Positions 1-21,000 of a DNA stretch of 21,000 bases are shown one piece after another; positions within the stretch are counted from its first letter, which is position 1; each line of letters opens with the position of its first letter. Under the pieces are notes generated by a model. It saw only the letters and a list, made by a program, of their open reading frames with translations, ran no database searches and was not told the origin of the DNA. Both the position numbers and the translations under genes were made by a program. The DNA is from Mytilus galloprovincialis (lineage: Eukaryota), in NCBI RefSeq assembly GCF_965363235.1, contig NC_134842.1:33891757-33912756 (forward strand), given 5' to 3'.

Positions 1-83
1 ATTTTACTTATATAACATAATTTTTAATGCATTTGCCAATTTGAAGGCTAAACGAATACCAAACTATTATATTATTTCAACAG

Positions 84-290
84 GTATATGTAAAGGGAAA
101 ACAGACGGGAAAACTTTGCCCTACGTTGGTTGTAGATCGTATTGGAAGTGTCAAGATGGCATCCCTGAACCAATGTGCTGCCCTGCTGGTCAACATTATG
201 ATAATAAACAATCTAAATGTGTTGTTGGAATATCATCAGCATGTTACGGTGTAAGTTGTGATGGTGCAGCCAGAGCTTCCCCTCGTAAGA
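84..290 (+). CDS. Gene 1 internal exon. Encodes a type-2 chitin-binding (peritrophin-A, CBM14) domain. It is entered in phase 1, and the 5' end of the gene lies upstream of the window.
   Basis: Acceptor tttcaacag|GT at 81-83. The frame stays open through ICKGKTDGKTLPYVGCRSYWKCQDGIPEPMCCPAGQHYDNKQSKCVVGISSACYGVSCDGAARASPRK. The cysteine spacing is C-x13-C-x5-C-x8/9-C-x12-C-x7-C, which is the ChtBD2 pattern. The donor AAGA|GTAAGT at 291 leaves phase 1, which is the only phase compatible with the next exon. The track 'ORF' 41-325 starts on TTG and is not a real start. Confidence 0.72.
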
Positions 291-1170
291 GTAAGTACAA
301 TGTATATATATATATCACAGTTTAATTCTTTTAAGTATTTATATCGCTAATTTACATTGGACAAATTCTGCAGTAGACATTAATAATTCCGAAACAATTT
401 TTGATGTTCAAACCAAGACCGTTTTTGTTTATTTCATTGGAAACCTATCTTTTCAAAATAAGACAATCAGTTCTTTATTGGTTAATTTTCAAATATGACA
501 TGAAATGCTATTGCTTACCTCTAAATTTCCTATTGTGACGTCATGAAAAAAGGCGACCATGCCTGATTGTTTTACATAGAAAGAACACACCTTTTTGCCG
601 ATTAATTGAAAAAGAATAATTTAATTTTAAATGTTTAAATCGCCCGGCAAGGTCCGTGTTATAAATTTTGAAAGTGAAATTTCTCAAGTAGGGAAATATC
701 TTTTTAGCATTCGATGGGTAGGTATACGTAGAATCTATATATATATAAAATAAGTAAATAATTAATAAATCTTGCGCATTAAACCCATCATGTGTTCTGT
801 TTGATATTTAGATGTTTTTTAGATTATGCAATAATAAATTAATTGATTGCTGTTTGTTTAACATCCAGTGGCAAATGTTCCATGCATATACGGCACGAAT
901 TCTTACACAAACTACTGAAAGACATATGTAGGAGTTCAGCCTACAGTCTGTTTTAATAGACAGGTCTGGTTTGTCTATATATGACAGACCCCCAACCCCC
1001 GCCACCCTACCCGTCCTGAATAAATTACATGGAGACTAGATATTCAACTTCTGACAAGCAAAATAAATGTCTTCTTGTTTCAGAGGCATGCGATTTAAGA
1101 AAAATTTTATAAATTAAACAGAAATAATTTCACTTTCTGACCAGCAAAAATAAATGTCTTCTTTTTTCAG

Positions 1171-1344
1171 ATCCAGCATGTGATTATGAGGAAAATTCTA
1201 AAGATCCTGCTACATATTACCAAGTACTGAGAGTAAAGGGGTTTGCCGACAGGAAATTCTTACGCAGCTGTGCTCCTGGTACTATTTACAGTGATTTAGA
1301 CTGTATGTGTGTAATGGATTATGATGAAATTGCCAAAAAGACAG
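1171..1344 (+). CDS. Gene 1 exon, Cys-containing module (…NPACDYEENSKDPATYYQVLRVKGFADRKFLRSCAPGTIYSDLDCMCVMDYDEIAKKT), phase 1 to phase 1.
   Basis: Acceptor cttcttttttcag|AT at 1168-1170 and donor ACAG|GTAAGA at 1345. Only one of the three frames is open across all 174 nt, and that frame needs one base from the previous exon, matching the phase-1 exit at 290. Confidence 0.6.
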
Positions 1345-1699
1345 GTAAGATTTGAATGGCGTTCTCAATTATTTTCTTCTAAAAGAGGGACGAAAGATAC
1401 CCGAAAGATACCAAAGCGATACTCAAGCTCATAGATCGAAAATAAACTGACAACGCCATAGCTAAAAAAGAAAAAGACAAACGGACAAATAATAGTACAT
1501 AAGACACTACATAAGCAATGTTATATGATTTTTGAATAACTAAATTTTATCTAAAGATATAAAATTTATTTGTACGAGACATAGAAACAGGTTGATTAAG
1601 ATGACGTTAATTTATGATCTGTTTCTAGGAAAGTATAAATAAAATAGGTATTTTGAGACAATTTATCATGGTTGTTCACTTAAACTGAACAGTTTTAAC

Positions 1700-1910
1700 T
1701 TGGAAATAAGAAATGTAAACTTAAATATGAGGAATGTGAACTTGGGAGTGAGGAATATCAACGTGGGCGTGAGGAATGTCAACTTGGGCGTGAGGAGTGT
1801 CAAGCTCAGGTTAGAAATGTCAAGTTCGAAGTTTTAGAGGAATGTCAAGTTCGAAACGACCGAGGAATGCCAGATTCGAAGTTAGAAATGTGAAAATAGA
1901 AGTCGTTCAT
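1700..1910. repeat. Intronic minisatellite of about nine degenerate copies of a roughly 21-bp unit GAGGAATGTCAACTTGGGCGT.
   Basis: gaggaatgtgaacttgggagt / gaggaatatcaacgtgggcgt / gaggaatgtcaacttgggcgt / gaggagtgtcaagctcaggtta / gaaatgtcaagttcgaagtttta / gaggaatgtcaagttcgaaacgacc / gaggaatgccagattcgaagtta …. Confidence 0.75.
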
Positions 1911-2175
1911 CTTAAAAATAGAATTCCCTTCCAGTATTATGTAGACGTCCGGTTAGGAGGAAAAGGAGTAGGCCCGGTAAGGACCGATTTTGGCCTCAAA
2001 TTTCAGGTTCATCTGACGAAAGATTTTGACCACTTTTTAAACACTTAAGTGTCTATTTCATTTGATTCGATTAGTTTATGTCAAAGATTTTAACTGATTT
2101 AGTCATTAAAAACGATCCGATTCAAGCCTAAATATGAAAAATCTACCAAATATGCCAAAAAATGTCACTTTTCAG

Positions 2176-2322
2176 ATGGTTTTTGTCAAAAATGAAAGTG
2201 GCCGCATCCGTGTTCATCCTCAACCTTTATATATGTTATGCATAATTATAAAATACAACTTACATTTCAATATTAAAGATGAACACGAATGCGGCCACTT
2301 TCATTTTACACGAAAACCGTTC
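2176..2322. repeat. Foldback, MITE-like inverted repeat. The arms are about 42 bp and about 90% identical, with a 28/29 core match, and they are separated by about 58 bp.
   Basis: The left arm GGTTTTTGTCAAAAATGAAAGTGGCCGCATCCGTGTTCATC (2179-2218) pairs with the reverse complement of GATGAACACGAATGCGGCCACTTTCATTTTACACGAAAACCG (2278-2319). Confidence 0.6.
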
Positions 2323-2812
2323 AAAATTCAACTAAAATGCTAGAATTGTGAAGATTTTAGTTTTTAGTAATTTAGCATGACTTAATGGTGCTAGTACCCG
2401 ATATATGTACATTGTATTATCAAAAACAGCCCATATTTATGTAGCAGAAGCATTCTACTGTCCAATAAATAAATAAAAGTTTACATTTTAACAATTTTGT
2501 AAAACTGCTATATTTTGGGGCCAAAAAGGGGTCTAACTTGACCTTCTCCTTTCTCAAAACGATCCTTGTGTGGAAAATATTTAACTTTCATTATTTGGCA
2601 TTAACAAATTTGGAATAAAAGTTTTAGGTAGAAAAAAATTTAATGACATGACAAATGTATAAATTGTAAGAAAGTTGTTTTTAGATATAATATAGATGCT
2701 TTTATTCAACGTACACAGGCATAATTTATGTTAATGCGTACTCGGTCATTGTACAGCATCTGCCAATGATACTTACCAAAAACATGACGTCATGCATGAC
2801 TATATTTTTCAG

Positions 2813-3222
2813 CTTGTAGTGCAATGATTACCCAAGGTGCAAATGGTCAGTTCTACTATAAGAAAGACATGAATTTACCATTTGGAAAATCAAACTTAGA
2901 CTTGACCTCTGAACCAGATGCTATGACCTTCAATTCAAAATCCCATATCAACATATGGCGTCTTGCCAACCATGAATTTATGGACTCATTCGGGGTTGAG
3001 ATGAATGTGAAACTCACTCCATTTACCGGAAAGAAGGGATCTAAAACTGAACAGATCATGTTAAACTGTCTTCATAGTGACGCAGTACTGGAGGAAGACC
3101 AATGCTCGCCTTCTATGTCTCTACAAGTCAGGAAAGAACCTAAGAAGTACACATTCATCGCGCAATTGTTTACACGCACTGATAGAGGAACAGAATATAA
3201 TAAGACAATCTCCAGCACAGTA
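2813..3222 (+). CDS. Gene 1 exon encoding 137 aa with no domain I recognise (…ACSAMITQGANGQFYYKKDMNLPFGKSNLDLTSEPDAM…TDRGTEYNKTISSTV), phase 1 to phase 0.
   Basis: Acceptor tatatttttcag|CT at 2811-2812. A 160-codon open frame (track ORF 2824-3306) is unusually long for this AT-rich sequence. The first two bases complete a split codon G+CT. The donor GTATGT at 3223 comes just before the frame degenerates into a poly-T, intron-like stretch. Confidence 0.6.
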
Positions 3223-3791
3223 GTATGTTATCTTTTTTTTAACAGTTACAATTTTTTTTTACATTATAATTATGCAGAATTTTTAATCGATTTATCGATT
3301 ATATAACTGTTAGATTTGTCAAAAACAGTAAAATTTCATATTCATAAAAAGGAGATGTGAGTGTATACATAATCCATGGGACGACCACCCAAGGACAAAA
3401 ATTATTGCGGCAATATATTGCGGGTTACATACCTACGGCACTTTGTAATTATGGCGGATCCAGACTACTCTTCTACATTGTTCTAGACTCATTGCGATTT
3501 AGCCTAAGAGCTTAACATCTTGTAAGTTCACTGGTGCATTGTTTATATCTGCATATTGGCCTTTATGTGTGTTTATTGTTGGGTTTGTTTTTCATTTTAT
3601 GTCATTTATGTATATACTACATTTTCTTTTAATCTTTTTTTTTTGTGTCCAGAACATGCATGAAATATTTGCCGCTGCACGTAAAGCAACCAACAAACAA
3701 TTTATCAATTCGTATCTTGTATATACATTTGTATGCATGCAAACTACAGTTTTCATCTGAATTATGAATTTATCCAACGTTTCCATTTTAG

Positions 3792-3897
3792 TCTTCCTCA
3801 AGTGGCTACAAAGGATACATTCCTATCACATTTGCATATGATGGTGACAATTTTGCATTGAAGGCCGACAGCAATGAGCAATCTGTACCTTTGTCAG
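3792..3897 (+). CDS. Gene 1 small exon (SSSGYKGYIPITFAYDGDNFALKADSNEQSVPLS+G), phase 0 to phase 1, ending in a GC donor.
   Basis: Acceptor ccattttag|TC at 3790-3791. Only the phase-0 frame is open. The donor CAG|GCAAGT at 3898 matches the consensus perfectly apart from GC, and it leaves the phase 1 needed by the next exon. Confidence 0.4.
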
Positions 3898-3973
3898 GCA
3901 AGTACATTACCATATCCATAGCTGGTGCAGTTATAAAAAAAAGATGCTGATGATGACGATTTTCATTTTTGAT

Positions 3974-3976
<3 letters not shown>

Positions 3977-4038
<62 letters not shown>
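3977..4038. repeat. (AT)31 microsatellite, in intron 4 of gene 1.
   Basis: Uninterrupted atat… run. Confidence 0.95.
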
Positions 4039-4042
<4 letters not shown>

Positions 4043-4155
4043 GATATATTAAAAAAAAATTGCTATGAATTATGAACAATTATTTAATGACAAGCAAAAT
4101 TATTTTTAACGATTTGTGAAAAAAATCCAATTCAGTAACTTTTTTTCTAAATTAG

Positions 4156-4247
4156 GTTGGATACAGCGAAGACAGACCGGCTTGGTTTTTGGACGTCCAA
4201 CAATTAGAAATACCTCAGTAGGTTTCTTGGATGGCAGCTTGAAAGAG
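4156..4247 (+). CDS. Gene 1 small exon (G-WIQRRQTGLVFGRPTIRNTSVGFLDGSLKE), phase 1 to phase 0.
   Basis: Acceptor ttttttctaaattag|GT at 4154-4155 and donor GAG|GTAATT at 4248. Only the frame that begins after two bases is open. Confidence 0.4.
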
Positions 4248-4652
4248 GTAATTTTATTTATTATTTTGGTTGTAATAAAATAACTAACAAAAGATTGCCA
4301 AAGAAATAGCTATTCACCACAAACTACATGGAAAAGATCGTCACAATTTTTATATAGCATCGTACAGCTTTCGATAACGTGAGCAATGAGCAAAGTCCAT
4401 ACCATATAGTAAGCTTTGAAAGGCCTCGACATGACTAAATGGAAAACAATCCAAATAAAAAAAACAGCGTGATTTATGTTAATGTTGATGGCTATCAGAT
4501 TTCTTTGTTGCTTTTTGAAATGATGTTGTTTTTTCGTCAACCACCATATTCACACTTCAATAATAAAGATTGGCTATTAATTGCATGTATATTAAATTTC
4601 ATTTTTAATGAAGCGTGGGTTTTAATAAAAGTGTGCATTTTTTATTTTACAG

Positions 4653-4709
4653 ATTAACGTTTACGACTGTATCCCACTATCAATCAAGGACGCACTGACA
4701 ATAATGTAA
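4653..4709 (+). CDS. Gene 1 terminal coding exon (INVYDCIPLSIKDALTIM*), with the stop codon TAA at 4707-4709.
   Basis: Acceptor tttttattttacag|AT at 4651-4652. The phase-0 frame runs 18 codons to TAA. An AATAAA lies about 170 nt downstream. Confidence 0.4.
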   Translation: MNVYDCIPLSIKDALTIM

Positions 4710-4880
4710 CCTGCACTGGACTACAGACCACGGACCACGTACACCAGGACAATCCCAACGACATTAAAATATTCGTTCTCATCTGTTTCTCAAGAATCTA
4801 CAAAAAAAAACTGTTTTCAAATTTTAGAAATGACGTAAATTTTTCTTCGTACTCTTAAATGTATGTAATTTTCTATCTTT

Positions 4881-4886
4881 AATAAA
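4881..4886 (+). terminator. Candidate polyadenylation signal AATAAA for gene 1.
   Basis: AATAAA sits about 172 nt downstream of the inferred stop codon, in an AT-rich 3' flank. Confidence 0.35.
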
Positions 4887-5136
4887 CTTCTTGCATATTT
4901 TAAATTTGTATTGATGTTTGCATATTCATATACCCCAACACTGGATGTTATTGTCAACTCGGTAATAGGAACATGACTGCTACATGTGTATGTATCTGAT
5001 GTAATGAAATACTTCTGTTTCAAGTTAGGGTGAAGGCAAAACGTTTATAACCGCTGCATTTGTTTGCACATATCAGAAGTCAGGAACCTGATGTTTAGTA
5101 CTTAATGTTTGTTGATGTGGTTCCTAACTTTAAGTG

Positions 5137-5142
<6 letters not shown>

Positions 5143-5169
<27 letters not shown>

Positions 5170-5360
5170 TCGATTCGTCGTTGGTGTTTCTGTTTGAATT
5201 GTTTACACTAGCATTCGAGGCCCTTTATAGTTTGCTGTTTGGTGTAATCCAAGGCTCCGTGTTGAAGGCCGTACTTTGACCTAAAATTATTTACGTTTTA
5301 CACATTGTAACTTGAAGTTGTCTAATGACATCATTTTACATTGGAGATGGTGTAACAACA
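5143..5360 (-). mobile_element. SINE-like retroposon copy in minus orientation with an A-tail of about 26 nt (T26 on the plus strand at 5143-5168).
   Basis: The reverse complement of 5176-5300 reads …GGTCAAAGTACGGCCTTCAACACGGAGCCTTGGATTACACCAAACAGCAAACTATAAAGGGCCTCGAATGCTAGTGTAAACAATTCAAACAG… followed by poly-A. The same core recurs on the plus strand at 6186-6404. Confidence 0.6.
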
Positions 5361-6185
5361 CGAAAACAAAATAATCTACAAATTTAGAACTACAAAACAA
5401 TAAACGATGGCGTTGTTGGTTTTTTTTTCTTCAAGTACAATAAGAAAAAGCTGAAACATGGCACTCTACATCACGTGTATGCTTTCAATGCCCTCTAAGA
5501 GATAACTGCAAAGGGGTTAGGAACATCTATGTTGAAATCTTTGTAGAAGGTGAACTAAATGTTTATTATACTGTATACATGTATAAAATTACTGAAAATG
5601 GAGGTTTTATGTTCAGTGCCAAAGAAGAAGGCAATACTTTACTATAGGTCTTGAAATATAACACTGGTACATACAAAATGTACATTAGGGAGTTGGTCAA
5701 TTTAGGAGATTTCGGGAGAATTATTGACAAAATATAAAGAATTGAGGAATTACAGAGAATATTGGGCATAACAATAAAGACAAAACAAGCCATAAAGCCT
5801 ACAGAAAACCATCAAAGTACAAGATGATGTCTAGAAATTATTAATATTATCACAAAGAAACTATATAGAGAGTGACAGATTATTAGTTAGGGTTACATTT
5901 AATCTGTCATCGCATACGGTGTTATAGTTAAGTTGAAAGAAAATCAAACCTACCTTATGATTGGCTACCTATGACGGTCCTACACGGTCGGTCCTATATT
6001 TGGTGGTGTTTTGTTTTTGTGGTTTTTTTTTTGCCGTTTCTGGTCATTACTTGCATATCATTCTATTATTATAATATGTCTGCTTTGAATCTTATACTTT
6101 CGGTTTTGGAATGCGCATCTGGTGCAGAACAATTGGTACCATTAATTTAATTCCAGTCTATATCTGATAATAATATATAAATAAG

Positions 6186-6404
6186 GAGATATGGTATGTC
6201 TGACAATGAGACAACTATCAACCAAAGTTCATATGGAGTGAATGTAAGCAATTACCGGTAACACGGTACGGCCTTCAACAAATAGAAAACCAATACCATG
6301 AAGTCGGCTATAAAATACCCCGACATGAAAAATATGAAACAATTTAATTGAGAAGGCTAACGTCCGAATACTTAACAAAAGTATTTACGAAAAAAAAAAT
6401 ATGA
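6186..6404 (+). mobile_element. Second copy of the same SINE-like family in plus orientation (head GATATGGTATGTCTGACAATGAGACAACTATCAACC … ACGGTACGGCCTTCAACAAATAG … GCTATAAAATACCCC … A10).
   Basis: It shares the CAATGAGACAAC head motif, the GGTACGGCCTTCAACA core and the CTATAAA(G/A) box with the minus-strand copy at 5143-5360, and it ends in an A-run at 6395-6404. Confidence 0.55.
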
Positions 6405-6480
6405 CAAACATTAAAAACGACAAAAACTGAACTACAGCCTCTTGACTTATGAAGAATGTGGCGGTGTTAATAGATATAGG

Positions 6481-6545
6481 AAGATGTGGTGTGAGTGCCA
6501 ATGAGACAACTCTCCATACAAATAACAATTTAAAAAGTAAACCAT
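6481..6545 (+). repeat. Head fragment of the same repeat family (AGATGTGGTGTGAGTGCCAATGAGACAACTCTCCATACAAATAACAATTTAAAAAGTAAACCATTAAAC).
   Basis: Near-identical to the 5' region of the copy at 6186 and to the short fragment at 20281-20310 (AGATGTGGTATGAGTGCCAAAAATAAGG). Confidence 0.55.
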
Positions 6546-7827
6546 TAAACATGTTTGTGCGCGCTCAACTTGACCTGGGACAGTGGTGTTAGAGCACAAC
6601 ATAACAAACTATAAAATTCAGTTGAAAATGACTCAATTCATCAAAATCAGAAAAACATCGAATTAAACACAGACCAGATGTTGCAAGATATTTATGCATC
6701 TCTCATCCATTACAACAAAAAAGACACCGTCCGTGAAGTACAGATCTGAGAGGACTCACAGTTACTGACAGCTATTTCAAAGCAGTTAAAATCAATAAAA
6801 GAAAAAGTGAACAATTTTCACAGCTTTCTAAATATTTTACCTTAAGTTTAACTTCATAGAAACCAGGTTTATCCTTAATTGTACATGTATCAGCTTTCTA
6901 CAGGCCAATTTTCAACATACCTTTAAAGCCTTCTAACAAAGTAACTGACCATCAAACAGAGGTACTCCAAAACAAAAACCTGGTTTTCTGGAAATCTAAA
7001 ATTAGTATACTATGGAGCGCATTAATCCTCAATTTTTAATGCAAACTCGTAGACAAGTAAATTTTGGCTCAAAATGATCTAGATATATTTCTCTTTCACC
7101 AAAAGTTTCATTTCTGCAAATTTGTTGGTTAGTTTAAGTAAACAAGGACACCAAAAGCACTATTTTGTGTCAGAGTAGGGCTACTTTTAAATTGGAGGGA
7201 GTAATTGGTGGTCTGACACCTAAAAACTGTTGCTATCGTTTAGCGTCCATCGTCCGTTTTTACGTTTTGGAATTTTCCTCAATAACCACCGTTTCTGATA
7301 GACCTTATGAGTGTCTAAAATATACTTCATAATAGTAATGTCGATTCATCCAGTTGACTCAACATGGCAACCATATTGCTAAAATTAAAAGGTAAACGTA
7401 AAATGCAAAAAATTGACTAATATTTTGAAACAAAAATACTTCTGACCGGGAAAGCATGTTTATAAAATTACAATCTTAGACTACGTACGTACCCTCTATC
7501 TCCACAAAATTACCAATTGATTCCCTGTAGTAGTGTTTATCTTTAACAGAGAGGCTAAAGACACCAAAGGTGCCTTGCACCAATGCTGTTTTCAGATGAA
7601 AATTGAAATAGTATAGCCAGTTTTGTTTTCAGTGCTGCTAATATAGTATTGTGTTGATGCGAAGGAGTTGCCAGTTTAATCCTTGCTAGAGAGGAATTCC
7701 TTTGATTGTGTTGGATATTTAGATACGCAGTCACGTCATGTCAAAGGAGGAGTTAAATCCAAACTCAAAGTATGCTCTGAACGTAAAAGACAAAAAAAAA
7801 TGAAACACTTACAATAAAATGGATAAT

Positions 7828-7930
7828 GGAAATGGGGAATCTGTCAACATGGTCAAGGAGACAGAAACCCGACCAAAGATCATAGAACAGACGAAGGCCG
7901 ACACCAATGGGTCTTCAATCCAGCGAGAAA
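7828..7930 (+). repeat. Copy of a second, related dispersed repeat (…GGGGAATCTGTCAACATGGTCAAGGAGACAGAAACCCGACCAAAGATCATAGAACAGACGAAGGCCGACACCAATGGGTCTTCAATCC…).
   Basis: It shares the motif GGGGAATGT-TCAAAGAGACAACAACTCGACCAAAGAGCAG…ATCAATGGGTCT with 18359-18425 in intron 7 of gene 2. Confidence 0.45.
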
Positions 7931-8814
7931 ATTTTGCACCATGAGGCTGACCCCTAAAATTAGTCTACTTGTTCGGTAAAAATGGACGTCTAACTACGTA
8001 TACACTCAAAAACATATAATTGAACTGAAAATTAAAAATAATAGATATGAAAGACTATAACTAAGATAATAATTTAAAAAACAACACAGCAATACACATA
8101 CATGTAGTATGACTCAGTTTAAAAGAAGCATAAGTCCAATGTCAGAATAGGTCACAACAACTATTTAAGGGATCGGTAGTTGACCCGCTGCATGACTATG
8201 TTTCTGGGCTTTTTCAACATAGTGTTTTACACTCATTTTCCAATTCCATTTTTAATTTTCGGATTTATCATACTCGGCCCATTATGCAGTACCTCCTTAT
8301 TGAATTAGTTGTTGGTTTGTTATCGCCACATTCTGACTAAAATCGGCCCACTATCCACTTGCGTTTCTACAAACGGAAGCAGGTATTATGGGCTGTTTTA
8401 GCCAGAATTTTCGAAAAGAATATGTGTGAAATACTTGCTACTAAACGTTAACCAAACACGCTACCGATCAATCTCTTCTAAAAACAGTCAATTTGACAAA
8501 AGTTAAATAAATGTATAATATATATGGTAGTGGTGAGAATCCGAAATTTTCATCTGATTTGTTTTTCCTAAGGAAATATATCATTTAAAGTTTTCTTAAA
8601 TCCAATTTCAAATTAAGATATTGATACAAGTCCCATTACAATCATTGCTTCCATTTTAGACCTGTGGTCAGTACTTAAATGAGTGACTATGTCAATGCCC
8701 TTTAGGCAACTTGTATTTAAATTGAGACGATCTTAATTTGTCTGTCTTTTATCTATATAATATCTTATCTTACATGTTCATCTCAATCAAATGTTCAATT
8801 AAAAACATTCCTTA

Positions 8815-9108
8815 GGGAGCTACCATTTGATTTTTATGGGGGGGCTAGGATGAAATTTGAAAAAAATAGGCAGGACAGGAGTTTTGAGTAAAAAAAAAAG
8901 GCAGGATGAGACACTTTTTAAAAAAAAAGGCAGGATGACAATTTAGGTAAAAAAAGTCAGGATAAACTAATAAAAAAAAAGGCAGGACCGAATAGAGTGA
9001 AAAATAAAAAGGCAGGACAGAGATTACAACTAAAAAAAAATGCAGGACAAAATTTTTCATCCTAGCCCCCCCCCCCCCCCCCCCCATAAAAATCAAATGG
9101 TAGCTCCC
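8815..9108. mobile_element. Non-autonomous DNA transposon of MITE type, Tourist-like (PIF/Harbinger-like). It has roughly 40-bp terminal inverted repeats and a TTA target-site duplication.
   Basis: The left end GGGAGCTACCATTTGATTTTTATGGGGGGGCTAGGATGAAA (8815-) is the reverse complement of the right end TTTCATCCTAGC(C)20ATAAAAATCAAATGGTAGCTCCC (-9108). Both ends are flanked by TTA (8812-8814 and 9109-9111). The element has no coding capacity. The 83-aa minus-strand ORF in the track is an artefact of the poly-G/poly-C runs. Confidence 0.75.
8865..9052. repeat. Internal tandem array of the MITE: seven degenerate copies of an A8-10-GGCAGGAY-plus-variable-tail unit of about 27 bp.
   Basis: aaaaaaataggcaggacagg…, aaaaaaaaaaggcaggatgag…, aaaaaaaaaggcaggatgaca…, aaaaaaagtcaggataaac…, aaaaaaaaaggcaggaccgaa…, aaaataaaaaggcaggacaga…, aaaaaaaaatgcaggacaaaa…. 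Confidence 0.8.
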
Positions 9109-9308
9109 TTACGAAGCATAATATAATTTGATGATTCATTAAAATTAATGTGTGAAATAAATTCGTTTTATTTTCTATCGCAATTATGTATTTTTGTTTC
9201 TATGGGAAACATGATGGTATTATTATGAAGTGACTCGGATACACCTTTTTTGGTTCTCTCGATAAATATATAAATGTTCTTACTTTAAATAAAACTAATA
9301 TAAACAAC

Positions 9309-9331
9309 TATATATATATATATATATATAT
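9309..9331. repeat. (TA)11 microsatellite, intergenic.
   Basis: tatatatatatatatatatatat. Confidence 0.9.
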
Positions 9332-12479: not shown

Positions 12480-12552
12480 ATGATTATGCGGTGGTTAGTA
12501 ACATTAGCAGTGTGCATTGCCACTCTATCAACACTGGGATATTGCCAGATCG
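12480..12552 (+). CDS. Gene 2 first coding exon, encoding a signal peptide (MIMRWLVTLAVCIATLSTLGYCQI+G), exiting in phase 1.
   Basis: ATG at 12480 in a good context (aacaATGa). The peptide has a hydrophobic core, a small-residue cleavage region and the donor ATCG|GTGAGT at 12553. A phase-1 exit after a signal peptide is the classic arrangement for secreted modular proteins. A strong acceptor-like cttttttcag at 12451-12460 immediately upstream hints at a 5' non-coding exon further upstream. Confidence 0.7.
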
Positions 12553-12911: not shown

Positions 12912-13469
12912 ATAACTGTTTGGACGGCAAAGCAGATATAGTGATAGCTTTAGATGGAACCCGACTAAATACAGCTACGGAACATACCCAATTTGTTTTT
13001 ATGAAAGAGTACATCAAGAAAATTTTGAACAAAATAACACTGAATTTTATCAACGGTACAATGGTTTCTCTTTTTACATACGGGACAACTTCAACGGAGA
13101 TTGCCGACTTCAGTGCTGATAAAAACAGTATACTAACTAAGTTGCAAGCCTTAACATATCCGAGACTTCCAACTCGATATACCAATCTGGCACTAGACCA
13201 CATCACAGAGAAATTTAAGAAATTCAATCGCCGTGGTGTGCCAAGAATAGCCATTATATTTGTAAACGGAAACACAAACGGAGATTTCTCTACGCTAAAA
13301 ATAGCCGCTAAAAAAGCAGCAATAAACGAGAACATTCAAATAATAGCTGTTTCTGCAAATTCCACGTTTGCTGTTCGAGACCTTGACACTATCACAAGCT
13401 ATGTTCCAGGAAGAATCATTTCTGCGGTTTATAGAGATGACGATCCTGATATGGCCGCTGTTTGCCAAT
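12912..13469 (+). CDS. Gene 2 exon encoding VWA domain 1 (NCLDGKADIVIALDGT…IQIIAVSAN…MAAVCQ), phase 1 to phase 1.
   Basis: Acceptor tattactaatttcag|AT. A 186-codon open frame. VWA landmarks are present: a βA strand DIVIALDGT, RYTNLALDH in the TNTG-AL position, a βD strand IAIIFVNGNTNG, and ENIQIIAVSAN. The donor AATG|GTAAGT is at 13470. Confidence 0.85.
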
Positions 13470-14119: not shown

Positions 14120-14149
14120 ATATGATAGGAGGAACTGTCTTGCCGCGAA
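14120..14149 (+). CDS. Gene 2 linker micro-exon of 30 nt (Y-MIGGTVLPR-), phase 1 to phase 1.
   Basis: Acceptor tttttttttcag|AT and donor GAAG|GTAAGT. It is in phase with both flanking VWA exons. It resembles the other two linker micro-exons in length, phase and flanking context. Confidence 0.55.
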
Positions 14150-14661: not shown

Positions 14662-15210
14662 ATTGTACCGGGAAAGCTCACGTTATTCTCGGCATTGACC
14701 TTTCAACAAAATCCCGGTTCGACATGGCTTTAAATCTTGGGATTGCATTGTTCAGTAACGTACGACAAGTTAGAAGAACATTGTTGTTAAATGATGCTAA
14801 TAACTATGAGTATACTTTTGCCCCTGGTGTGAATTCTAAATCAGAGTTCGGTAAAATTCAAAGCGAGGCAGCCAGCCGTTTGAATTCAGGTTCATATGAT
14901 GCAAAGGGAATGGTGGACAGCTTTGTAAGCGCCTTTAATAAAAGTCTACTAACAACCATGCATATGGCTAGAGTTGCTATTCTTATATCAGACACGGATT
15001 CTGGTTCTCCAACACAGATGAGACAAGCAGTAGATATGCTTCGGAACCAAAACATTAAGTTGATAATCATAGCAGTACAAGCAGAATTTAAGCCAAGTTT
15101 GCAGACTCTTTTAGAACTTACGGAGGAAAACTTACAAAACCAGATAGTAACTTCAGATATGACACTCTCTGTAAGCGGACTCAACCAAGTAATGAACTCT
15201 GTTTGTTATG
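14662..15210 (+). CDS. Gene 2 exon encoding VWA domain 2 (NCTGKAHVILGIDLSTKS…IKLIIIAVQ…NSVCYG), phase 1 to phase 1.
   Basis: Acceptor ttttatttcag|AT at 14659-14661. 183 codons are open. The VWA fold pattern is present (βA strand HVILGIDLS, βD strand VAILISDTDSGS, then KLIIIAV). The donor TATG|GTAAGA is at 15211. Confidence 0.85.
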
Positions 15211-15545: not shown

Positions 15546-16118
15546 CAATTCAAAGATGTCCAGGGGAGATTGACGTCATGATTGCCATGGATACGTCCTA
15601 CAGTATAGCATCTCAACCTGAAAAAGTGCAATTGGTTAAGGCTTATACCAAAATTATTGCCAATAGTTTTATTCACAACAGAGTACATGCAGCACAAATA
15701 GCCATCATTGCGTTTGGTACAAGTGTTTTCCATGTATCGTTCTTTGGGGATAACCTCATTGATATTATTGAAAACATCAACCTTGCTCAACCAATTTCGA
15801 ACGATTATAAAACTAATACAGATATAGCCTTAGACTATATGATCAATAGGACGAACTCAAAGGGACGACCAGGAGTTCCGAAAGTAGCTATTATAGTAAC
15901 AGACGGTAAATCTACAAATGGATTACAAAATCTACAAAACAGTGCTATTAGGGCAGCAATGAACAATTTGATAACTGTAGCCGTGGGAGTTGGGGATGGC
16001 TATATAATGGAAGAATTGAGCAATTTAACCAATGGAATTCAAGAAAATATTATTGAATCTACTTTTGAAGATCTGACATCAATCGCTGCTTCGAAAACAG
16101 TAGATAGATTGTGTTTAT
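15546..16118 (+). CDS. Gene 2 exon encoding VWA domain 3, the only copy with a complete MIDAS (AIQRCPGEIDVMIAMDTSYS…NTDIAL…VAIIVTDGKST…ITVAVGVG…DRLCL), phase 1 to phase 1.
   Basis: Acceptor taatactttcag|CA at 15543-15545. 191 codons are open. All three MIDAS elements are present: DxSxS (DTSYS), T (KTNTDIAL) and D (TDGKST). The donor TTAT|GTAAGT is at 16119. Confidence 0.87.
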
Positions 16119-16629: not shown

Positions 16630-16659
16630 TCGCAATAGACGGACAAGAAACGAGTCAAG
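16630..16659 (+). CDS. Gene 2 linker micro-exon of 30 nt (F-AIDGQETSQ-), phase 1 to phase 1.
   Basis: Acceptor ttttttttatattttgtag|TC and donor CAAG|GTATGT. It is the same length and phase as the micro-exon at 14120, and it similarly follows a C-x-C/CxG domain end. Confidence 0.55.
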
Positions 16660-17493: not shown

Positions 17494-17876
17494 TTTGTGA
17501 AGGCGCTGCTCACGTTACGATAGCAGTAGATGTCGGTGATGCAAAGAACTTTGATGAAGTAAAGCTTTTTGCTGCTAAGCTTATAGCAAATCTTAAAGTA
17601 CAAGAAATGTTGGTATCTATTGTAATTGGCAGTACAGGGGCTGAGTATAATTTTCCCGCCAATACTGACAGCAATACTATTCGGAATACTATTTTGAGAT
17701 CTACAAATTCTGACCAAAACATCTACAACCACACTGGTACCATAAATCGTGCAGCAAAGGCATTTGCTGCAAAACCAATCATGCCTAGGATTGTATTGTT
17801 CATCACTGATGGAAAATCGACTAATCCTGCTTCGTCTATAGCTGCTGCTAGAATTGCTGCAACAAATGACATTCAG
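17494..17876 (+). CDS. Gene 2 exon encoding the N-terminal two-thirds of VWA domain 4 (VCEGAAHVTIAVDVGDAKN…HTGTINRAAKAF…IVLFITDGKSTN…ATNDIQ), phase 1 to phase 0.
   Basis: Acceptor ccttttttattag|TT at 17492-17493. The frame is open and is the same frame as track ORF 17607-17882. VWA motifs are present (TDGKST βD). The donor CAG|GTATGA at 17877 comes after a complete codon. Confidence 0.78.
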
Positions 17877-18358
17877 GTATGAATACTTTCTTTTATAAAT
17901 ACGGACATGATATTAGTTCCATTGCCGTAACTATTCTCCAAGATAATCAGAACGCATTTACACGTATGACCCTCAGCGATTCAACATTTTCATATACCAT
18001 ACAAAATGTTCCATTTGCTTCAATATTTGAAATTACGCAAGTGCTTGGTCGATACTGTAGAATTGTGACTAGAGTTACAGTATCTTTTTTTTTATTGCCA
18101 GAATGATGACGTATTATGCTGAACTGAATCAGTTCGATTATGGTATGAAAATCAAACCATAAACCAGATGACAACTTTAAGAAATGTATCCTTGACCACA
18201 GCTTAAACTGTGTAATCTCATCTTATCATTTTGAATTAAGCAATATGTATCTCCCTTAAATTCAAAACTCGGATTCCTTGTCCGGATTTGTCTATCCTCT
18301 GACATTTAGTTTAATCCTCTTTTCAACATTTGTAGTAGATTTTGGATAAAATGAAGAA

Positions 18359-18425
18359 TTGAAACGGGGAATGTTTCAAAGAGACAACAACTCGACCAAA
18401 GAGCAGAAAAATGTCATCAATGGGT
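18359..18425 (+). repeat. Second copy of the GAGACA…CGACCAAAG…CAATGGGTCT repeat, intronic in gene 2.
   Basis: See 7828-7930. Confidence 0.45.
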
Positions 18426-18581
18426 CTATATTCAAATATTTAACCTCATGCTTTACTGTAGAAATGTGTACTTAGTTGTTCAAAATGTGCATCTGGTAAA
18501 TCAAATTTGTACCTTTAATGCTTTTATTTAATCGAAGAACATTATTGCGTAGCATCGTCATTTATTTTCTTTTATTTAAAG

Positions 18582-18738
18582 TTTTTAGCACTTGGTCTAA
18601 TAAAAAAAGATATATCGGCTGTGGATATGAACGAGATAACCGGAATAGCTGGTGGTATTATACAAAATAGATTCGTTATATCAGAGGAAGGTCTACAAAG
18701 TAGTGGTGTAAACCTAGTCATTATGTCTGTCTGTCATG
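18582..18738 (+). CDS. Gene 2 exon encoding the C-terminal third of VWA domain 4 (FLALGLIKKDISAVDMNEITGIA…VNLVIMSVCH+G), phase 0 to phase 1.
   Basis: Acceptor ttttcttttatttaaag|TT at 18580-18581. This is the only phase-0-compatible acceptor; the nearby tttttag at 18588 gives an immediate stop. The sequence aligns with the C-terminal halves of the other VWA copies (…AVG…EL..IT…C-x-G end). The donor CATG|GTATGT is at 18739. Confidence 0.7.
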
Positions 18739-19293
18739 GTATGTATTATAATATCAAAAGCTTCTGAATAGTATTATAGGGGTCACTAACAATTATGATG
18801 TCGCAAAATAGTGAACAATCTCAAGTCGAATCTGGTAAAAATAAGATGTTAACCTGTAATGTAAAGCGTAATGCTGAAGTCTCTTCAAACGAAATACACA
18901 AAAATGCTTAAATTTTTAAAACTTTATTGCTGTTTATTCTAATGCAAATTAGTCTACGGTTAATACAATGCAACCAATGCAATGTAACACTTCCGACCTG
19001 CGCGCGCATTGTCTTATCTGTATTTATTTTCCAGGACTAGGTTTGCTTTTTTTTCAAACCTATAGTTCCCATTTCCTAATTCATTACATTTTTTTGTAGC
19101 ATATGAGAGTCTGTAAAACGCAAAACTCTATGCATTTACGTCAGTACGAAACGAAACTTGTTAAAAACCGTCTGAAGCTGGGAGTTGTTTTAGACACACG
19201 TAAAGGATGCTCAGAATAGTAGTTTCCGTTTCTAAGGGAATGACTTTTACATTTTAATTTATGTATCATTGCATCATATTTATTATTTTGTAG

Positions 19294-19326
19294 CTATAAG
19301 TGATTGGAGTGGAACATCACTACTGA
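19294..19326 (+). CDS. Gene 2 linker micro-exon of 33 nt (A-ISDWSGTSLL-), phase 1 to phase 1.
   Basis: Acceptor tattattttgtag|CT and donor CTGA|GTAAGT. It is in phase with both neighbours and is the third member of the linker micro-exon series. Confidence 0.5.
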
Positions 19327-19639
19327 GTAAGTTTTTATAATTTAAAAAAATAAGGTTTTTAATTTAAATTTAAATTTTAGCTACGATGATTCCTCATTTG
19401 TGTTTCATTTTCTGATATTTCTTACATTATATTTCAATATCCAACTGGTCTCGTTATGTGAAATTTGTATTTATTTATTTTTTACATATTGAGATACATG
19501 TATTATTGTGACAAAAATGTTTGGTATCAAAGTTATGAAAGATGCTTTAACTTTCGTTTTAATATTTATGGGTTCCAACAATTATACGCCAAGAATTTTA
19601 GGAATTTGTACAACATGATGTATTGTTTATTAATTTTAG

Positions 19640-20167
19640 AATTTATGGGTCCTGCCGAAGTATCACTAATGATTGACTCCTGCGATGGAACCATGCACAC
19701 CTTCTACCGTGCATTTGCTAAAGATGTTCTTAGATATATCAACGTGGAGGACAACAAGGTCAAATTAAATGTAGCCTCGTTTTGCTCTAAAGTGGAACCA
19801 ATCAGCTCATATCAGGACATGTATTATATTCATCCTAGTCTAAAATATGAAAATATAATGGCGAACAAGCAATGGACAGCATCGCAAATAATCGGCGACT
19901 ACATCCTGCATTTTAATGATATCCGCTCATCGAATAAAATTGGAATTGTCTTAGTAAACGATGCCACTAATGAACCGAATTTAAGACTAATTGCACAGTT
20001 TGCTTACCAGCAAGGCATTACTCTTTTTGCAATTGGAATTGATTACGGACAGCAGAACCTTGAAATGAAGTTGGCACAAATAAGTCCTAACGGCTATATG
20101 AAATTGCCTCTTAATCAACTTAACGTTATGGGGATGAACTTCCTTATTACCAACTTTATGGCAATGG
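19640..20167 (+). CDS. Gene 2 exon encoding VWA domain 5 (K-FMGPAEVSLMIDSCDGT…IGIVLVNDATN…ITLFAIGIDYG…NFMAMG), phase 1 to phase 1.
   Basis: Acceptor ttaattttag|AA at 19638-19639. 176 codons are open (track ORF 19465-20190, whose N-terminus is intronic). It has the VWA βA, βD and C-terminal patterns. The donor ATGG|GTATGT is at 20168. Confidence 0.82.
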
Positions 20168-20280
20168 GTATGTTAATTTTTAAATGTTGATTTGGTTTAT
20201 TTATGTGATATGAAAAATTTCAGTTGTTTGTGTAATGTGTGATGAGCATATGGTTCCTTTTTTAGCTAGTAGATACAAGA

Positions 20281-20310
20281 AGATGTGGTATGAGTGCCAA
20301 AAATAAGGTT
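20281..20310 (+). repeat. Short fragment of the same repeat head inside intron 10 of gene 2.
   Basis: AGATGTGGTATGAGTGCCAA matches the head at 6481. Confidence 0.4.
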
Positions 20311-20745
20311 CCTTTTTTATATGCTTAAATGGTATCCGCACACAATGAACTTTCAACGGAATTCAAGATATCACGACAGTTTAGAGGAACGTTATTTAAA
20401 ATTCAAGCTATGTATTATAACACCAGATTGAGTTGTAGACTTTTTAATTAATGATGTACCACCAGAGTAGTAGCTGTCCCATTGAAAAGGTCATTCTCTT
20501 AAATATAATGTTGAAAAAAAACTTATAAATCATTCATCATAAGATGTTTGTCCCCCAGGCCTAAATGGCCCTATCCAGATTTGGCACAATTTATTTAATT
20601 TTTCAATTCTCATTCCTTAGCCGAATTCTATGATATAGGTCTATACTGTTGTCATCTGTTATTTTGACTTTGCTCAATTAATTTGTTTTCGTATTTATAT
20701 ATATATTTCACGATATATTTGTCTGATTTTGATATCAAATTGCAG

Positions 20746-21000
20746 CTAATGCTAGTGACAGATACGTTGCTATGGGACTTGTTGGTTTTAATCCGACGAT
20801 AGACTTAGGCAACCAGTCCATCCGATATAATCATTTGGTAACCAGTCTTCAGGGCCAGACCAGGATGTTAACTGGAAATATCAGGAATGAGATGGATAGT
20901 CGGATATCAAATGCAGTTTACACCGGAAATGGATTGGCCATTCATGACGCAATTGCAAATTTTAGACAGCTATTCAAAAATAAGTCTGGAAAGAAATATG
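20746..21000 (+). CDS. Gene 2 exon running off the window end, encoding a divergent VWA-like domain 6 (A-NASDRYVAMGLVGFNPTIDLGNQSIRYNHLVTSL…AVYTGNGLAIHDAIANFRQLFKNKSGKKY…), entered in phase 1.
   Basis: Acceptor gatatcaaattgcag|CT at 20744-20745. 85 codons are open to the window edge in the phase dictated by the previous exon. The T-G-N-G-x-A-I…F segment resembles the VWA α2/α3 'TNTGxAL' region. The βA strand and MIDAS are not recognisable. Confidence 0.55.

What the first reader, a model, noticed from the sequence alone, without database searches (positions are those of the whole stretch)
1..21000. Tandem same-strand pair of Pif/BMSP-like secreted matrix-protein genes (ChtBD2 C-terminus of gene 1, then signal peptide and VWA array of gene 2)
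The 3' end of gene 1 carries a canonical six-cysteine type-2 chitin-binding domain. Gene 2 starts 7.7 kb downstream on the same strand and consists of a signal peptide followed by at least five tandem VWA domains. A secreted protein combining tandem VWA domains with a peritrophin-A chitin-binding domain is the hallmark architecture of the molluscan nacre and shell-matrix proteins Pif and BMSP. A head-to-tail pair is the expected result of a tandem duplication, so the VWA part of gene 1 would lie upstream of the window and the ChtBD2 and C-terminal part of gene 2 downstream. This places a biomineralisation gene cluster in the window, but that is an inference from domain architecture, not from a database match.
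Basis: partly seen in the sequence, partly recalled or inferred. Interest (0 to 1): 0.7.

Follow-up and report, generated by a model that had tools for sequence, protein, structure and literature searches.

The report
Mussel Pif-type and multi-VWA gene pair
The window, from a Mytilus mussel genome, holds the tail of a secreted Pif-type chitin-binding matrix gene and the start of a neighbouring, very divergent gene with at least five VWA domains; this is an ordinary member of a gene family already known to be expanded in molluscs, and a role in shell formation is not shown.

Summary
Gene 1 (+ strand) has six GT/GC-AG exons from 84 to 4709. They encode a CBM_14 chitin-binding domain, a second Cys-rich CB-like module and an uninterrupted laminin-G-like domain. 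Gene 2 starts at ATG 12480, 7.7 kb downstream on the same strand. It has a signal-peptide exon, then five Pfam-significant VWA domains (E 2.5e-48) and a partial sixth.

The window is Mytilus, 92-98% identical to M. edulis CAJPWZ010000098.1. In that record gene 1's missing 5' part lies upstream: a signal-peptide exon, one VWA exon and another CBM_14 exon. So gene 1 has the Pif/BMSP-family architecture (SP-VWA-CB-CB-CBlike-LG). It lacks any Pif80/BMSP100-like insert.

The tandem-duplication idea holds for gene 1 and a further upstream paralogue, not for gene 1 and gene 2. Gene 2's VWAs are only 24-27% identical to gene 1's. Gene 2 is a real gene: 10 synonymous against 6 nonsynonymous SNPs in six individuals. 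It has no close annotated relative. Its nearest solved structure is the byssal protein PTMP1. Its 3' end, with or without a chitin-binding domain, could not be reached.

Verdict: new members of a known kind; the shell-matrix role is unproven.

The parts
84..290 (+). Gene 1 exon, phase 1-1: CBM_14 (peritrophin-A) chitin-binding domain. It corresponds to the second CB domain of Pif/BMSP-type proteins.
   Evidence: Pfam CBM_14 E 4.3e-9, full model. It aligns to the second CB of P0112, P0058, P0102 and P0106. AG/GTAAGT splice sites. 95.7% identical and ungapped in M. edulis L008 92805-93011.
1171..1344 (+). Gene 1 exon, phase 1-1: third, degenerate Cys-rich CB-like module (…PACDYEEN…SCAPGTIYSDLDCMC…).
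   Evidence: Colinear with P0112 585-626, P0058 and P0081. 100% identical in L008.
2813..3222 (+). Gene 1 exon: N-terminal and central part of the laminin-G-like (LG) domain.
   Evidence: Aligns to the LG-N region of VWA-CB-LG mollusc proteins. 99% identical to the C-terminal part of M. edulis CAG2185682.1.
3792..3897 (+). Gene 1 exon: LG domain (…GYIPITFAYDGDNFALKADSNEQSVPLS). It is followed by a predicted GC-AG intron (3898-4155, donor AG|GCAAGT).
   Evidence: The frame and the 10-residue spacing to the conserved (I/F)G motif match homologues only with the GC donor.
4156..4247 (+). Gene 1 exon: LG domain (WIQRRQTGLVFGRPTIRNTSVGFLDGSLKE).
   Evidence: Matches the homologue motif xIxxR…IG…F.GEIDE. 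98% identical in L008.
4653..4709 (+). Gene 1 last coding exon (INVYDCIPLSIKDALTIM*, stop TAA 4707-4709). An AATAAA signal lies at 4881.
   Evidence: Same terminal exon as in the M. edulis model. The VYDCIP motif matches homologue C-termini IYFCLP and AYKCVP. AATAAA position.
12480..12552 (+). Gene 2 exon 1: start codon and signal peptide (MIMRWLVTLAVCIATLSTLGYCQI).
   Evidence: ATG, hydrophobic core, GTGAGT donor in phase 1.
12912..13469 (+). Gene 2 exon 2: VWA1. The MIDAS motif is degenerate (LDGTRL; D to N in the DG loop).
   Evidence: Pfam VWA E 4.5e-15. Domain alignment.
14662..15210 (+). Gene 2 exon 3: VWA2, very divergent.
   Evidence: Pfam VWA E 2.7e-4 on the ORF alone; part of the 5 stretches. 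5 synonymous and 6 nonsynonymous SNPs in 6 individuals.
15546..16118 (+). Gene 2 exon 4: VWA3, the only domain with a complete MIDAS motif (DTSYS…T…D).
   Evidence: Pfam VWA E 8.5e-18. PTMP1 E 1.7e-22. The exact ORF is present in at least 9 Logan contigs. All 5 SNPs are synonymous.
17494..17876 (+). Gene 2 exon 5: first two-thirds of VWA4.
   Evidence: Weak Pfam VWA/VWA_2 hits. Splice sites and frame.
18582..18738 (+). Gene 2 exon 6: last third of VWA4.
   Evidence: Phase-0 acceptor and phase-1 donor keep the frame open. Ends in the SVCH motif shared with VWA2.
19640..20167 (+). Gene 2 exon 7: VWA5. It has no MIDAS motif and no flanking Cys pair.
   Evidence: Pfam VWA E 3.2e-5. The exact ORF is in two Logan contigs.
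20746..21000 (+). Gene 2 exon 8, which runs off the window: possible partial sixth VWA-like domain.
   Evidence: Open frame and AG acceptor in phase. Only pattern-level resemblance to the beta2…alpha3 part of a VWA; no significant match.
1962..2552 (.). MITE-like insertion of about 590 bp, with terminal inverted repeats, inside a gene 1 intron. It is not part of either gene's coding sequence.
   Evidence: Absent at the orthologous M. edulis site (L008 95897/95898). A second copy lies at L008 1633-2204, 90.5% identical.

Best explanation
The window is a piece of a Mytilus (edulis-complex) chromosome. It lies inside a same-strand cluster of secreted VWA-domain extracellular-matrix genes.

Gene 1 is a small (about 623 aa) Pif-type protein. 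Its order is signal peptide, one MIDAS-competent VWA domain, two CBM_14 chitin-binding domains, a third degenerate CB-like module, and a complete laminin-G-like domain. The window holds its last six exons. The laminin-G-like domain has no low-complexity insert.

Inferred mechanism for gene 1: the CBM_14 modules anchor the protein to chitin. The VWA (through its metal site) and the LG domain bind other matrix proteins. It would therefore act as a chitin-to-protein cross-linker, like Pif97. It lacks the calcium-carbonate-binding Pif80/BMSP100 insert.

Gene 2 is a separate, much more divergent gene, and the window holds its first eight exons. It encodes a signal peptide and a string of at least five VWA domains, mostly one per phase-1 exon. 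Only the third domain keeps a full MIDAS motif, and that domain is also the most constrained. I infer that it is a multivalent secreted matrix cross-linker from the same molluscan VWA expansion. Whether it ends in chitin-binding/LG modules is open (about even odds). Whether it works in shell, byssus or another matrix is also open.

Shown: gene structures, domains, orthology to M. edulis, purifying selection.
Inferred: chitin and protein binding, tissue and role.
For: Gene models: open frames with canonical junctions.

Domains: CBM_14 E 4e-9; VWA E 2.5e-48 in 5 stretches.

Organism: an ORF cluster 96% identical to gene 1 exon C contains M. edulis CAG2185682.1. Window 5-9558 aligns to M. edulis contig CAJPWZ010000098.1 at 92-98%.

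Gene 1's 5' part in that contig: signal-peptide exon 79733-79790, VWA exon 86567-87115, CB1 exon 88913-89131. All are in phase with window exon 84-290. The full model gives Pfam VWA 2.9e-27 plus two CBM_14 stretches.

Colinearity: gene 1's C-terminal part aligns with mollusc VWA-CB-LG proteins (E 2.9e-13 and 6.3e-12). Two of these carry Pfam Laminin_G_3 at the matching place.

LG region: it scores 41 bits against an HMM built from five homologues without gene 1, against at most 6.6 bits for 1,000 shuffles.

Gene 2 is functional:
- Exons are intact in 6 individuals.
- There are 10 synonymous and 6 nonsynonymous SNPs, and 5 of 5 in VWA3 are synonymous.

Family affinity of gene 2:
- Proteins with CB domains are enriched among the best matches of VWA1 (5 of the top 15, P 1e-3) and VWA4 (6 of the top 15, P 6e-5).
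- The top match of VWA4 and VWA5 is Lottia LOTGIDRAFT_236719, the shell 'BMSP-like' protein (PMC11291548).

Family definition and chitin/VWA roles: PMC11291548, PMC5597905.
Against: - No expression or proteome evidence ties either gene to the shell.
- Gene 2's 3' end is unseen, so a chitin-binding domain is unproven.
- Gene 2's best-conserved domain, VWA3, is closest in the PDB to byssal PTMP1 (E 1.7e-22). Its nearest library relatives are mostly CB-less matrilin- or collagen-VI-like proteins. VWA2, VWA3 and VWA5 show no CB-positive enrichment in the top 15.
- All matches of gene 2 are weak (34% identity or less, apart from one unnamed 57% fragment).
- Four of the five VWAs lack a full MIDAS motif.
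- Pfam itself does not call Laminin_G on gene 1. The LG assignment is by transitive homology.
- Gene 1's upstream exons are read from a related assembly, not from the window's own contig.
Confidence: 0.7

Rival explanations
1. Gene 2 is itself a Pif/BMSP-type gene whose ChtBD2, LG and C-terminal exons lie just beyond position 21000. Genes 1 and 2 would then be head-to-tail products of tandem duplication, forming a shell-biomineralisation cluster.
For: - Gene 1 and the next gene upstream are both VWA-CB-LG genes on the same strand.
- CB-bearing proteins are enriched among the best matches of VWA1 and VWA4.
- The shell protein Lottia 236719 is the top match for VWA4 and VWA5.
- Bivalve BMSPs carry several tandem VWAs before the CB domain (PMC11291548).
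Against: - Gene 1's VWA is no closer to gene 2's VWAs (32-43 bits) than to those of other species (66-92 bits). Its true local paralogue is the upstream gene, at 109 bits.
- Bivalve BMSPs have four VWAs; gene 2 has at least five or six.
- No CB exon is visible within 8.5 kb of gene 2.
- VWA3 groups with PTMP1 and matrilin-like proteins.
- There are no shell expression data.
Confidence: 0.4
2. Gene 2 is a VWA-only extracellular-matrix protein of the PTMP1, matrilin or collagen-VI-like kind. It could be a byssal thread or connective-tissue matrix protein that binds collagen. It would merely sit next to a Pif-type gene.
For: - PTMP1 is the only significant PDB hit for VWA3 (E 1.7e-22). Other PDB VWAs are at E 4e-4 or weaker.
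- 140 of the 150 nearest relatives lack CB domains, and many are named cartilage matrix protein, matrilin, or collagen VI/XII-like.
- VWA1-4 have the N/C-terminal Cys pairs typical of matrilin/collagen-VI A-domains.
- The organism makes a byssus.
Against: - Identity to PTMP1 is only about 28-30% (28%).
- PTMP1 does not match VWA4 or VWA5 and barely matches VWA1 (14.8 bits), whereas CB-bearing proteins do match them.
- The gene lies in a Pif-type cluster.
Confidence: 0.45
3. Gene 2 is a decaying or non-functional duplicate (pseudogene), or an artefact of stringing chance ORFs together.
For: - The domains are extremely divergent: 13-26% identity to VWA1 in the domain alignment.
- MIDAS is lost in 4 of 5 domains.
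- VWA2 and VWA5 barely reach Pfam thresholds.
- No annotated protein with this sequence was found in a library of 1.84 billion representatives.
Against: - Eight exons give 1,025 codons with no stop, and every junction is GT-AG and in phase.
- The exons are intact in 6 individuals, with an excess of synonymous changes (10:6, and 5:0 in VWA3), where roughly 1:3 is my rough neutral expectation.
- An ORF 57% identical to VWA3 exists in another sequencing run.
Confidence: 0.05

Closest known systems
Pif (Pif177 = Pif97 + Pif80) of Pinctada fucata and the Pif/BMSP family as defined by Shimizu et al. 2024 (PMC11291548)
   Same: Gene 1 shares a signal peptide, a single VWA, CBM_14 followed by CBM_14-like modules, and then a laminin-G domain. 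The VWA has an intact MIDAS motif. Mollusc VWA-CB-LG proteins are its best matches.
   Different: Gene 1's LG domain is uninterrupted. There is no Asp/Lys/Arg-rich Pif80-type insert and no low-complexity region, so there is no obvious carbonate-binding part. Only 2 of 34 family members were reported with a complete LG. Subfamily placement was not tested, because no reference Pif sequence was available here.
BMSP (blue mussel shell protein, M. galloprovincialis BAK86420)
   Same: Gene 2 comes from the same genus. It has a signal peptide followed directly by several tandem VWA domains.
   Different: BMSP has four VWAs, then CB and a split LG with Gly/Ser-rich inserts. Gene 2 has at least five or six very divergent VWAs, and its CB/LG part is unknown. 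Of the 20 named hits among the 150 closest relatives of VWA3, none was BMSP, and none of the 10 CB-bearing hits that could be named was a Mytilus protein. So gene 2 is not BMSP itself.
Proximal thread matrix protein 1 (PTMP1), M. galloprovincialis byssus, PDB 4CN8
   Same: It is the closest solved structure to gene 2's VWA3 (E 1.7e-22). It has tandem VWA domains joined by short Cys-containing linkers. It is a secreted mussel matrix protein.
   Different: PTMP1 has two VWAs only. Identity is about 28-30%. The other gene 2 domains do not resemble it preferentially.
Lottia gigantea LOTGIDRAFT_236719 ('BMSP-like' shell protein)
   Same: It is the top match of gene 2's VWA4 and VWA5 and ranks fourth for VWA1. 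Its CB domain matches window exon 84-290. It has been detected in shell (PMC11291548).
   Different: It has two VWAs plus Thr/Ser-rich low-complexity regions. Scores are low (14-34 bits).
Matrilins / collagen VI-type multi-VWA proteins
   Same: They are also strings of VWA domains, each clasped by terminal cysteines, and they are secreted.
   Different: No collagen triple-helix, EGF or coiled-coil exons are seen in the window. Vertebrate and amphioxus hits reach high scores only by summing many domains at about 27% identity.

Membership tests
Pif/BMSP family - gene 1 | Secreted (N-terminal signal peptide) | tested here: met
   The M. edulis orthologous locus has an exon MMLLFIPVLLVAVVNGAVG, with a phase-1 donor that fits the VWA exon acceptor. 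It lies outside the window. No SignalP run was possible.
Pif/BMSP family - gene 1 | VWA domain upstream of the chitin-binding domain | tested here: met
   VWA exon at L008 86567-87115. Pfam VWA E 2.9e-27 in the full model. DGSES MIDAS motif is intact. It was read from the M. edulis assembly, not the window.
Pif/BMSP family - gene 1 | CBM_14 / CBM_14-like domain(s) downstream of the VWA | tested here: met
   CBM_14 at window 84-290, E 4.3e-9. A second CBM_14 stretch lies upstream and a CB-like module at 1171-1344.
Pif/BMSP family - gene 1 | Laminin-G domain (often split) after the CB domains | tested here: met
   41 bits against the LG HMM from homologues, compared with at most 6.6 bits for shuffles. 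The homologues carry Pfam Laminin_G_3. Pfam does not call it directly on gene 1. The domain is unsplit.
Pif/BMSP family - gene 1 | VWA falls in the Pif/BMSP clade (BLASTP below 1e-10 to PfuPif VWA and clade membership, PMC11291548) | tested here: inconclusive
   No PfuPif sequence was available. As a proxy, CB-bearing proteins make up 5 of the top 15 matches of gene 1's VWA (P 1e-3).
Pif/BMSP family - gene 1 | Presence in shell matrix / mantle expression | not testable with these tools
   No RNA-seq or proteome mapping was available. Accession searches in papers found nothing.
Pif/BMSP family - gene 2 | Secreted, with N-terminal VWA domain(s) | tested here: met
   Signal-peptide-like exon at 12480-12552. 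Five Pfam VWA stretches, E 2.5e-48.
Pif/BMSP family - gene 2 | CBM_14 and LG domains downstream of the VWAs | not testable with these tools
   The gene runs off the window at 21000. Logan contigs are too short. The metagenome scan was empty. The M. edulis locus fetched ends at window position 9558.
Pif/BMSP family - gene 2 | VWA domains belong to the Pif/BMSP clade | tested here: inconclusive
   CB-bearing proteins are enriched among the top matches of VWA1 (P 1e-3) and VWA4 (P 6e-5), but not VWA2, VWA3 or VWA5 in the top 15. VWA3 is nearest to PTMP1 and matrilin-like proteins. All scores are low.
BMSP subfamily (bivalve) - gene 2 | Exactly four tandem VWA domains at the N-terminus | tested here: not met
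   At least five Pfam-supported VWAs plus a partial sixth.
PTMP1-like byssal thread matrix proteins - gene 2 | Two VWA domains only, collagen-binding, foot-gland expression | tested here: not met
   The domain number differs (at least 5). Sequence similarity is limited to VWA3, at about 28-30%. Binding and expression are not testable here.

The most novel reading that the evidence does not exclude
Gene 2 founds a Mytilus-lineage subfamily of the molluscan VWA matrix proteins that has not yet been annotated. It would be a secreted chain of six or more fast-evolving VWA domains in which only one domain (VWA3) keeps a metal-binding MIDAS site and is under strong constraint. The others would have become MIDAS-less spacer or adhesion modules. 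It would have been recruited next to Pif-type genes, either for shell or for byssus.
Probability: 0.3. Interest if true: 0.4.

Novelty: new member of a known kind. Interest (0 to 1): 0.3.

Why it matters
Bivalve genomes carry about 160 VWA-domain genes, and Pif/BMSP-type proteins are central to current models of nacre formation, where they link chitin and protein scaffolds.

This locus adds a compact Pif-type gene that lacks the mineral-binding insert. It also adds a neighbouring, highly divergent multi-VWA gene that seems to be missing from public protein sets.

The current M. edulis model for the region (CAG2185682.1) fuses at least two genes and skips seven of gene 1's exons: the VWA exon and six of the seven that follow. 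Corrected models would help people who map shell or byssus proteomes and study how these families expand.

None of this changes the general picture. It is incremental.

Tried and rejected
- Word-indexed protein search with the gene 2 model and with the gene 1 C-terminus found nothing. This negative is unreliable, because the exact VWA3 ORF is in the collection.
The single VWA3 exon was used instead.
- First gene 1 endings were rejected. These were read-through to TGA 3948 and then to TAA 4281. The GC-AG intron and the final exon 4653-4709 match homologue motifs and the M. edulis terminal exon.
- The alternative donor for exon 84 at position 248 was rejected, because the longer exon keeps a Cys that is conserved in homologues.
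- An alternative GT donor for exon 3792 (GGCAA|GTACAT) was considered by hand. It was rejected because it shortens the conserved 10-residue spacing.
- A PDB profile search with the LG alignment gave no laminin-G hit, only a weak spurious one. Single-sequence PDB search of the LG region found nothing.
- The supplement of PMC11291548 holds accessions and low-complexity strings but no full sequences. A direct comparison with PfuPif or MgaBMSP was therefore impossible.
- I looked for a missing small exon between 20168 and 20745 for the N-terminus of VWA6 and found none.
- Attempts to reach gene 2's 3' end failed. The Logan contigs carrying VWA5 are only 1.07 kb, and the metagenome scan was empty.
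- Searching papers for SRR29152241, CAG2185682 and A0A8S3PQU2 found nothing.
- Rfam and tRNA scans of the window found nothing.

Full report
**What is in the window.** The sequence is AT-rich (about 32% GC) and has eukaryotic split genes. On the + strand two genes can be assembled from stop-free segments joined by canonical splice sites.

Gene 1 occupies 84-4709. Its exons are 84-290, 1171-1344, 2813-3222, 3792-3897, 4156-4247 and 4653-4709. The first exon is a full-length Pfam CBM_14 (peritrophin-A/ChtBD2) domain (E 4.3e-9, model 1-53/53). It has the canonical six cysteines plus an extra adjacent Cys.

Eight exons give a 1,025-codon open frame that runs off the window. Exon 1 encodes a signal-peptide-like N-terminus. 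The rest gives Pfam VWA at E 2.5e-48 in five separate stretches. Most VWAs are one phase-1 exon each, and VWA4 is split by a phase-0 intron. The last exon (20746-21000) resembles the middle of a sixth VWA but has no significant match.

**Which organism.** A profile of gene 1's C-terminal part found one database protein. It is an ORF from a public sequencing run, 96% identical to exon 2813-3222. Its 90% cluster contains Mytilus edulis CAG2185682.1. The genomic locus of that protein (L008, GCA_905397895.1, contig CAJPWZ010000098.1) aligns to window 5-9558 at 92-98% identity, apart from transposon-sized indels. The exact VWA3 ORF of gene 2 occurs on at least nine contigs, from runs SRR29152234-43. 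Six retrieved contigs are 98.4-99.8% identical to window 14.3-17.3 kb. The window is thus from a mussel of the M. edulis complex.

**Gene 1 is a Pif-type gene.** The M. edulis locus supplies the 93 kb upstream of the window. tblastn with 150 VWA proteins and with the M. edulis model shows exactly one VWA exon upstream of gene 1's chitin-binding exons (L008 86567-87115). It is preceded by a signal-peptide exon (79733-79790) and followed by a first CBM_14 exon (88913-89131). All splice phases fit window exon 84-290.

The composite 623-aa protein has Pfam VWA at E 2.9e-27, with an intact DxSxS…T…D MIDAS motif, and two CBM_14 stretches. The window-encoded part aligns colinearly with mollusc VWA-CB-LG proteins:
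- Babylonia P0112, E 2.9e-13
- Dreissena P0058, E 6.3e-12
- Sinanodonta P0081, Patella P0023, Candidula P0106 and Tegillarca P0102

Window exon 84-290 corresponds to their second CB domain, and 1171-1344 to a third, degenerate one. Exons 2813-4709 correspond to their laminin-G region. P0106 and P0112 have Pfam Laminin_G_3 hits at the matching place. An HMM built from five homologues without gene 1 scores gene 1's region at 41 bits. The maximum over 1,000 shuffles is 6.6 bits.

SP-VWA-CBM_14(-like)-LG is the Pif/BMSP-family architecture described by Shimizu et al. 2024 (PMC11291548). Unlike Pif and BMSP, gene 1's LG domain is not interrupted by a low-complexity insert. It therefore has no counterpart of the carbonate-binding Pif80/BMSP100 part.

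Getting the 3' end right required a GC-AG intron (3898-4155, donor AG|GCAAGT). Only this junction reproduces the 10-residue spacing and the xIxxR motif of homologues. The last exon ends in VYDCIP…, matching homologue C-termini (IYFCLP, AYKCVP) and the terminal exon of the M. edulis model.

Gene 1's exons are ungapped and 95.7-100% identical between the window and M. edulis. There are 8 synonymous and 7 nonsynonymous differences. Two of the nonsynonymous ones fall at 4275-4276, in the tail of the rejected 4156-4283 exon, which is intron in the final model.

**Gene 2.** Its VWA domains are very divergent from one another: 13-26% identity to VWA1 in the domain alignment. VWA1-4 keep the N- and C-terminal cysteines typical of extracellular A-domains. 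Only VWA3 keeps a full MIDAS motif (DTSYS…T…D).

An exhaustive HMMER search of 1.84 billion representative proteins with VWA3 gave only 711 hits at E ≤ 1e-3. The best was an unnamed 185-aa ORF at 57% identity, and everything else was ≤34%. M. edulis proteins are in that collection, so gene 2 appears not to be annotated as a protein there. This is an inference.

Of the 150 listed relatives, names were retrieved for 30. These are mostly molluscan 'uncharacterized', 'cartilage matrix protein', 'matrilin-like' or 'collagen VI/XII-like' proteins, plus amphioxus and shark multi-VWA giants that score by summing many domains. Ten of the 150 carry CB domains.

In the PDB the only significant match of VWA3 is the byssal collagen-binding protein PTMP1 (4CN8, E 1.7e-22).

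Looking at each domain separately gives a mixed picture:

| Domain | CB-bearing proteins in top 15 matches | Top match |
|---|---|---|
| VWA1 | 5 (P 1e-3) | unnamed ORF P0003 |
| VWA2 | 0 (not enriched) | P0037 |
| VWA3 | 1 (not enriched) | unnamed ORF P0003 |
| VWA4 | 6 (P 6e-5) | Lottia LOTGIDRAFT_236719 |
| VWA5 | 1 (not enriched) | Lottia LOTGIDRAFT_236719 |

Lottia LOTGIDRAFT_236719 is the shell 'BMSP-like' protein of PMC11291548. Gene 2's place relative to the Pif/BMSP clade therefore stays undecided.

Gene 2 is nevertheless a working gene. In six individuals the two exons covered are intact. They carry 10 synonymous and 6 nonsynonymous SNPs, and in VWA3 all 5 are synonymous. Segregating sites are 1.4% in exons against 2.3% in introns, which is not significant (P 0.13).

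**Tandem duplication.** The M. edulis locus shows another VWA-CB-CB-LG unit about 30 kb upstream of gene 1, on the same strand. Its exons are VWA 52508-53101, CB 60863-61093 and 62697-62864, and LG 66276-66713. It is 32-45% identical to gene 1 domain by domain. That pair fits tandem duplication.

Gene 2 does not fit it. Gene 1's VWA scores 109 bits against the upstream paralogue and 66-92 bits against other species' proteins. It scores only 32-43 bits (24-27% identity) against gene 2's VWAs, and the domain numbers differ.

**Function.** Nothing here measures expression or localisation. The following is inference from the established roles of the domains:
- CBM_14 binds chitin.
- VWA/MIDAS mediates metal-dependent protein-protein contacts.
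- The Pif97 VWA pulls down other nacre proteins (PMC11291548).
- VWA proteins with CB domains are modelled as linking chitin to the protein network (PMC5597905).

On that basis gene 1 most likely bridges chitin and matrix proteins. Gene 2 most likely acts as a multivalent matrix cross-linker with one metal-dependent site. Both are near-neutral (pI 7.0-7.7), not acidic mineral binders. Shell and byssus cannot be told apart with the tools at hand.

**Limits.** Gene 2's 3' end could not be reached. No reference Pif or BMSP sequences were available for a direct tree. Gene 1's 5' exons come from a related assembly.

**Verdict.** For gene 2 and for the biomineralisation role it is open. The result is new members of a known, heavily expanded family, of modest interest.

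Noticed in passing
window 1962-2552 (intron of gene 1); L008 95897/95898 and L008 1633-2204: A MITE-like element of about 590 bp has roughly 22-bp terminal inverted repeats (AAGGAGTAGGCCCGGTAAGGACC … GGTCTAACTTGACCTTCTCCTT). It is inserted in the window but absent at the orthologous M. edulis site. Another copy (90.5% identical) lies about 94 kb upstream in M. edulis. This is a polymorphic transposon insertion.
   Followed up: partly
window 3898-4155: A predicted GC-AG intron (donor AG|GCAAGT) lies in gene 1. Only this junction keeps the frame and the conserved spacing of the LG domain. It needs confirmation from cDNA.
   Followed up: partly
L008 10001-98022 (M. edulis CAG2185682.1 / A0A8S3PQU2): The public M. 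edulis gene model spans 88 kb and looks fused. It joins Ig-like exons, a complete VWA-CB-CB-LG unit, and then gene 1's signal peptide and CB1. It skips gene 1's VWA exon and the exons equivalent to window 84-290, 1171-1344, 3792-3897 and 4156-4247.
   Followed up: partly
L001 (SRR29152241 contig) versus window 2575-3367 and L008 95771-96738: In the resequenced population the gene 1 LG exon region is only 84-88% identical at DNA level to the window and to the M. edulis reference (96% at protein level). In the same runs the gene 2 region is 98.4-99.8% identical to the window. This could be a very divergent haplotype, introgression or an undetected paralogue. It remains unexplained.
   Followed up: partly
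L008 30377-35212: A long array of about 65-bp tandem repeats lies upstream in the M. edulis locus. Each unit translates to a roughly 22-residue motif that matches residues 253-282 of the M. edulis model. It is a minisatellite-like or repetitive coding stretch inside the fused model.
   Followed up: no
window 1728-1880 and 8891-9053: Short tandem repeats occur in gene 1's intron (21-25 bp units) and in the intergenic region (27-30 bp A-rich units). An (AT)36 microsatellite lies at 3977-4049, inside the GC-AG intron.
   Followed up: no
window 6812-7249 versus L008 100080-105734: The M. edulis reference carries about 5.6 kb of extra sequence in the gene 1-gene 2 intergenic region relative to the window. 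This is probably another transposon-sized indel.
   Followed up: no
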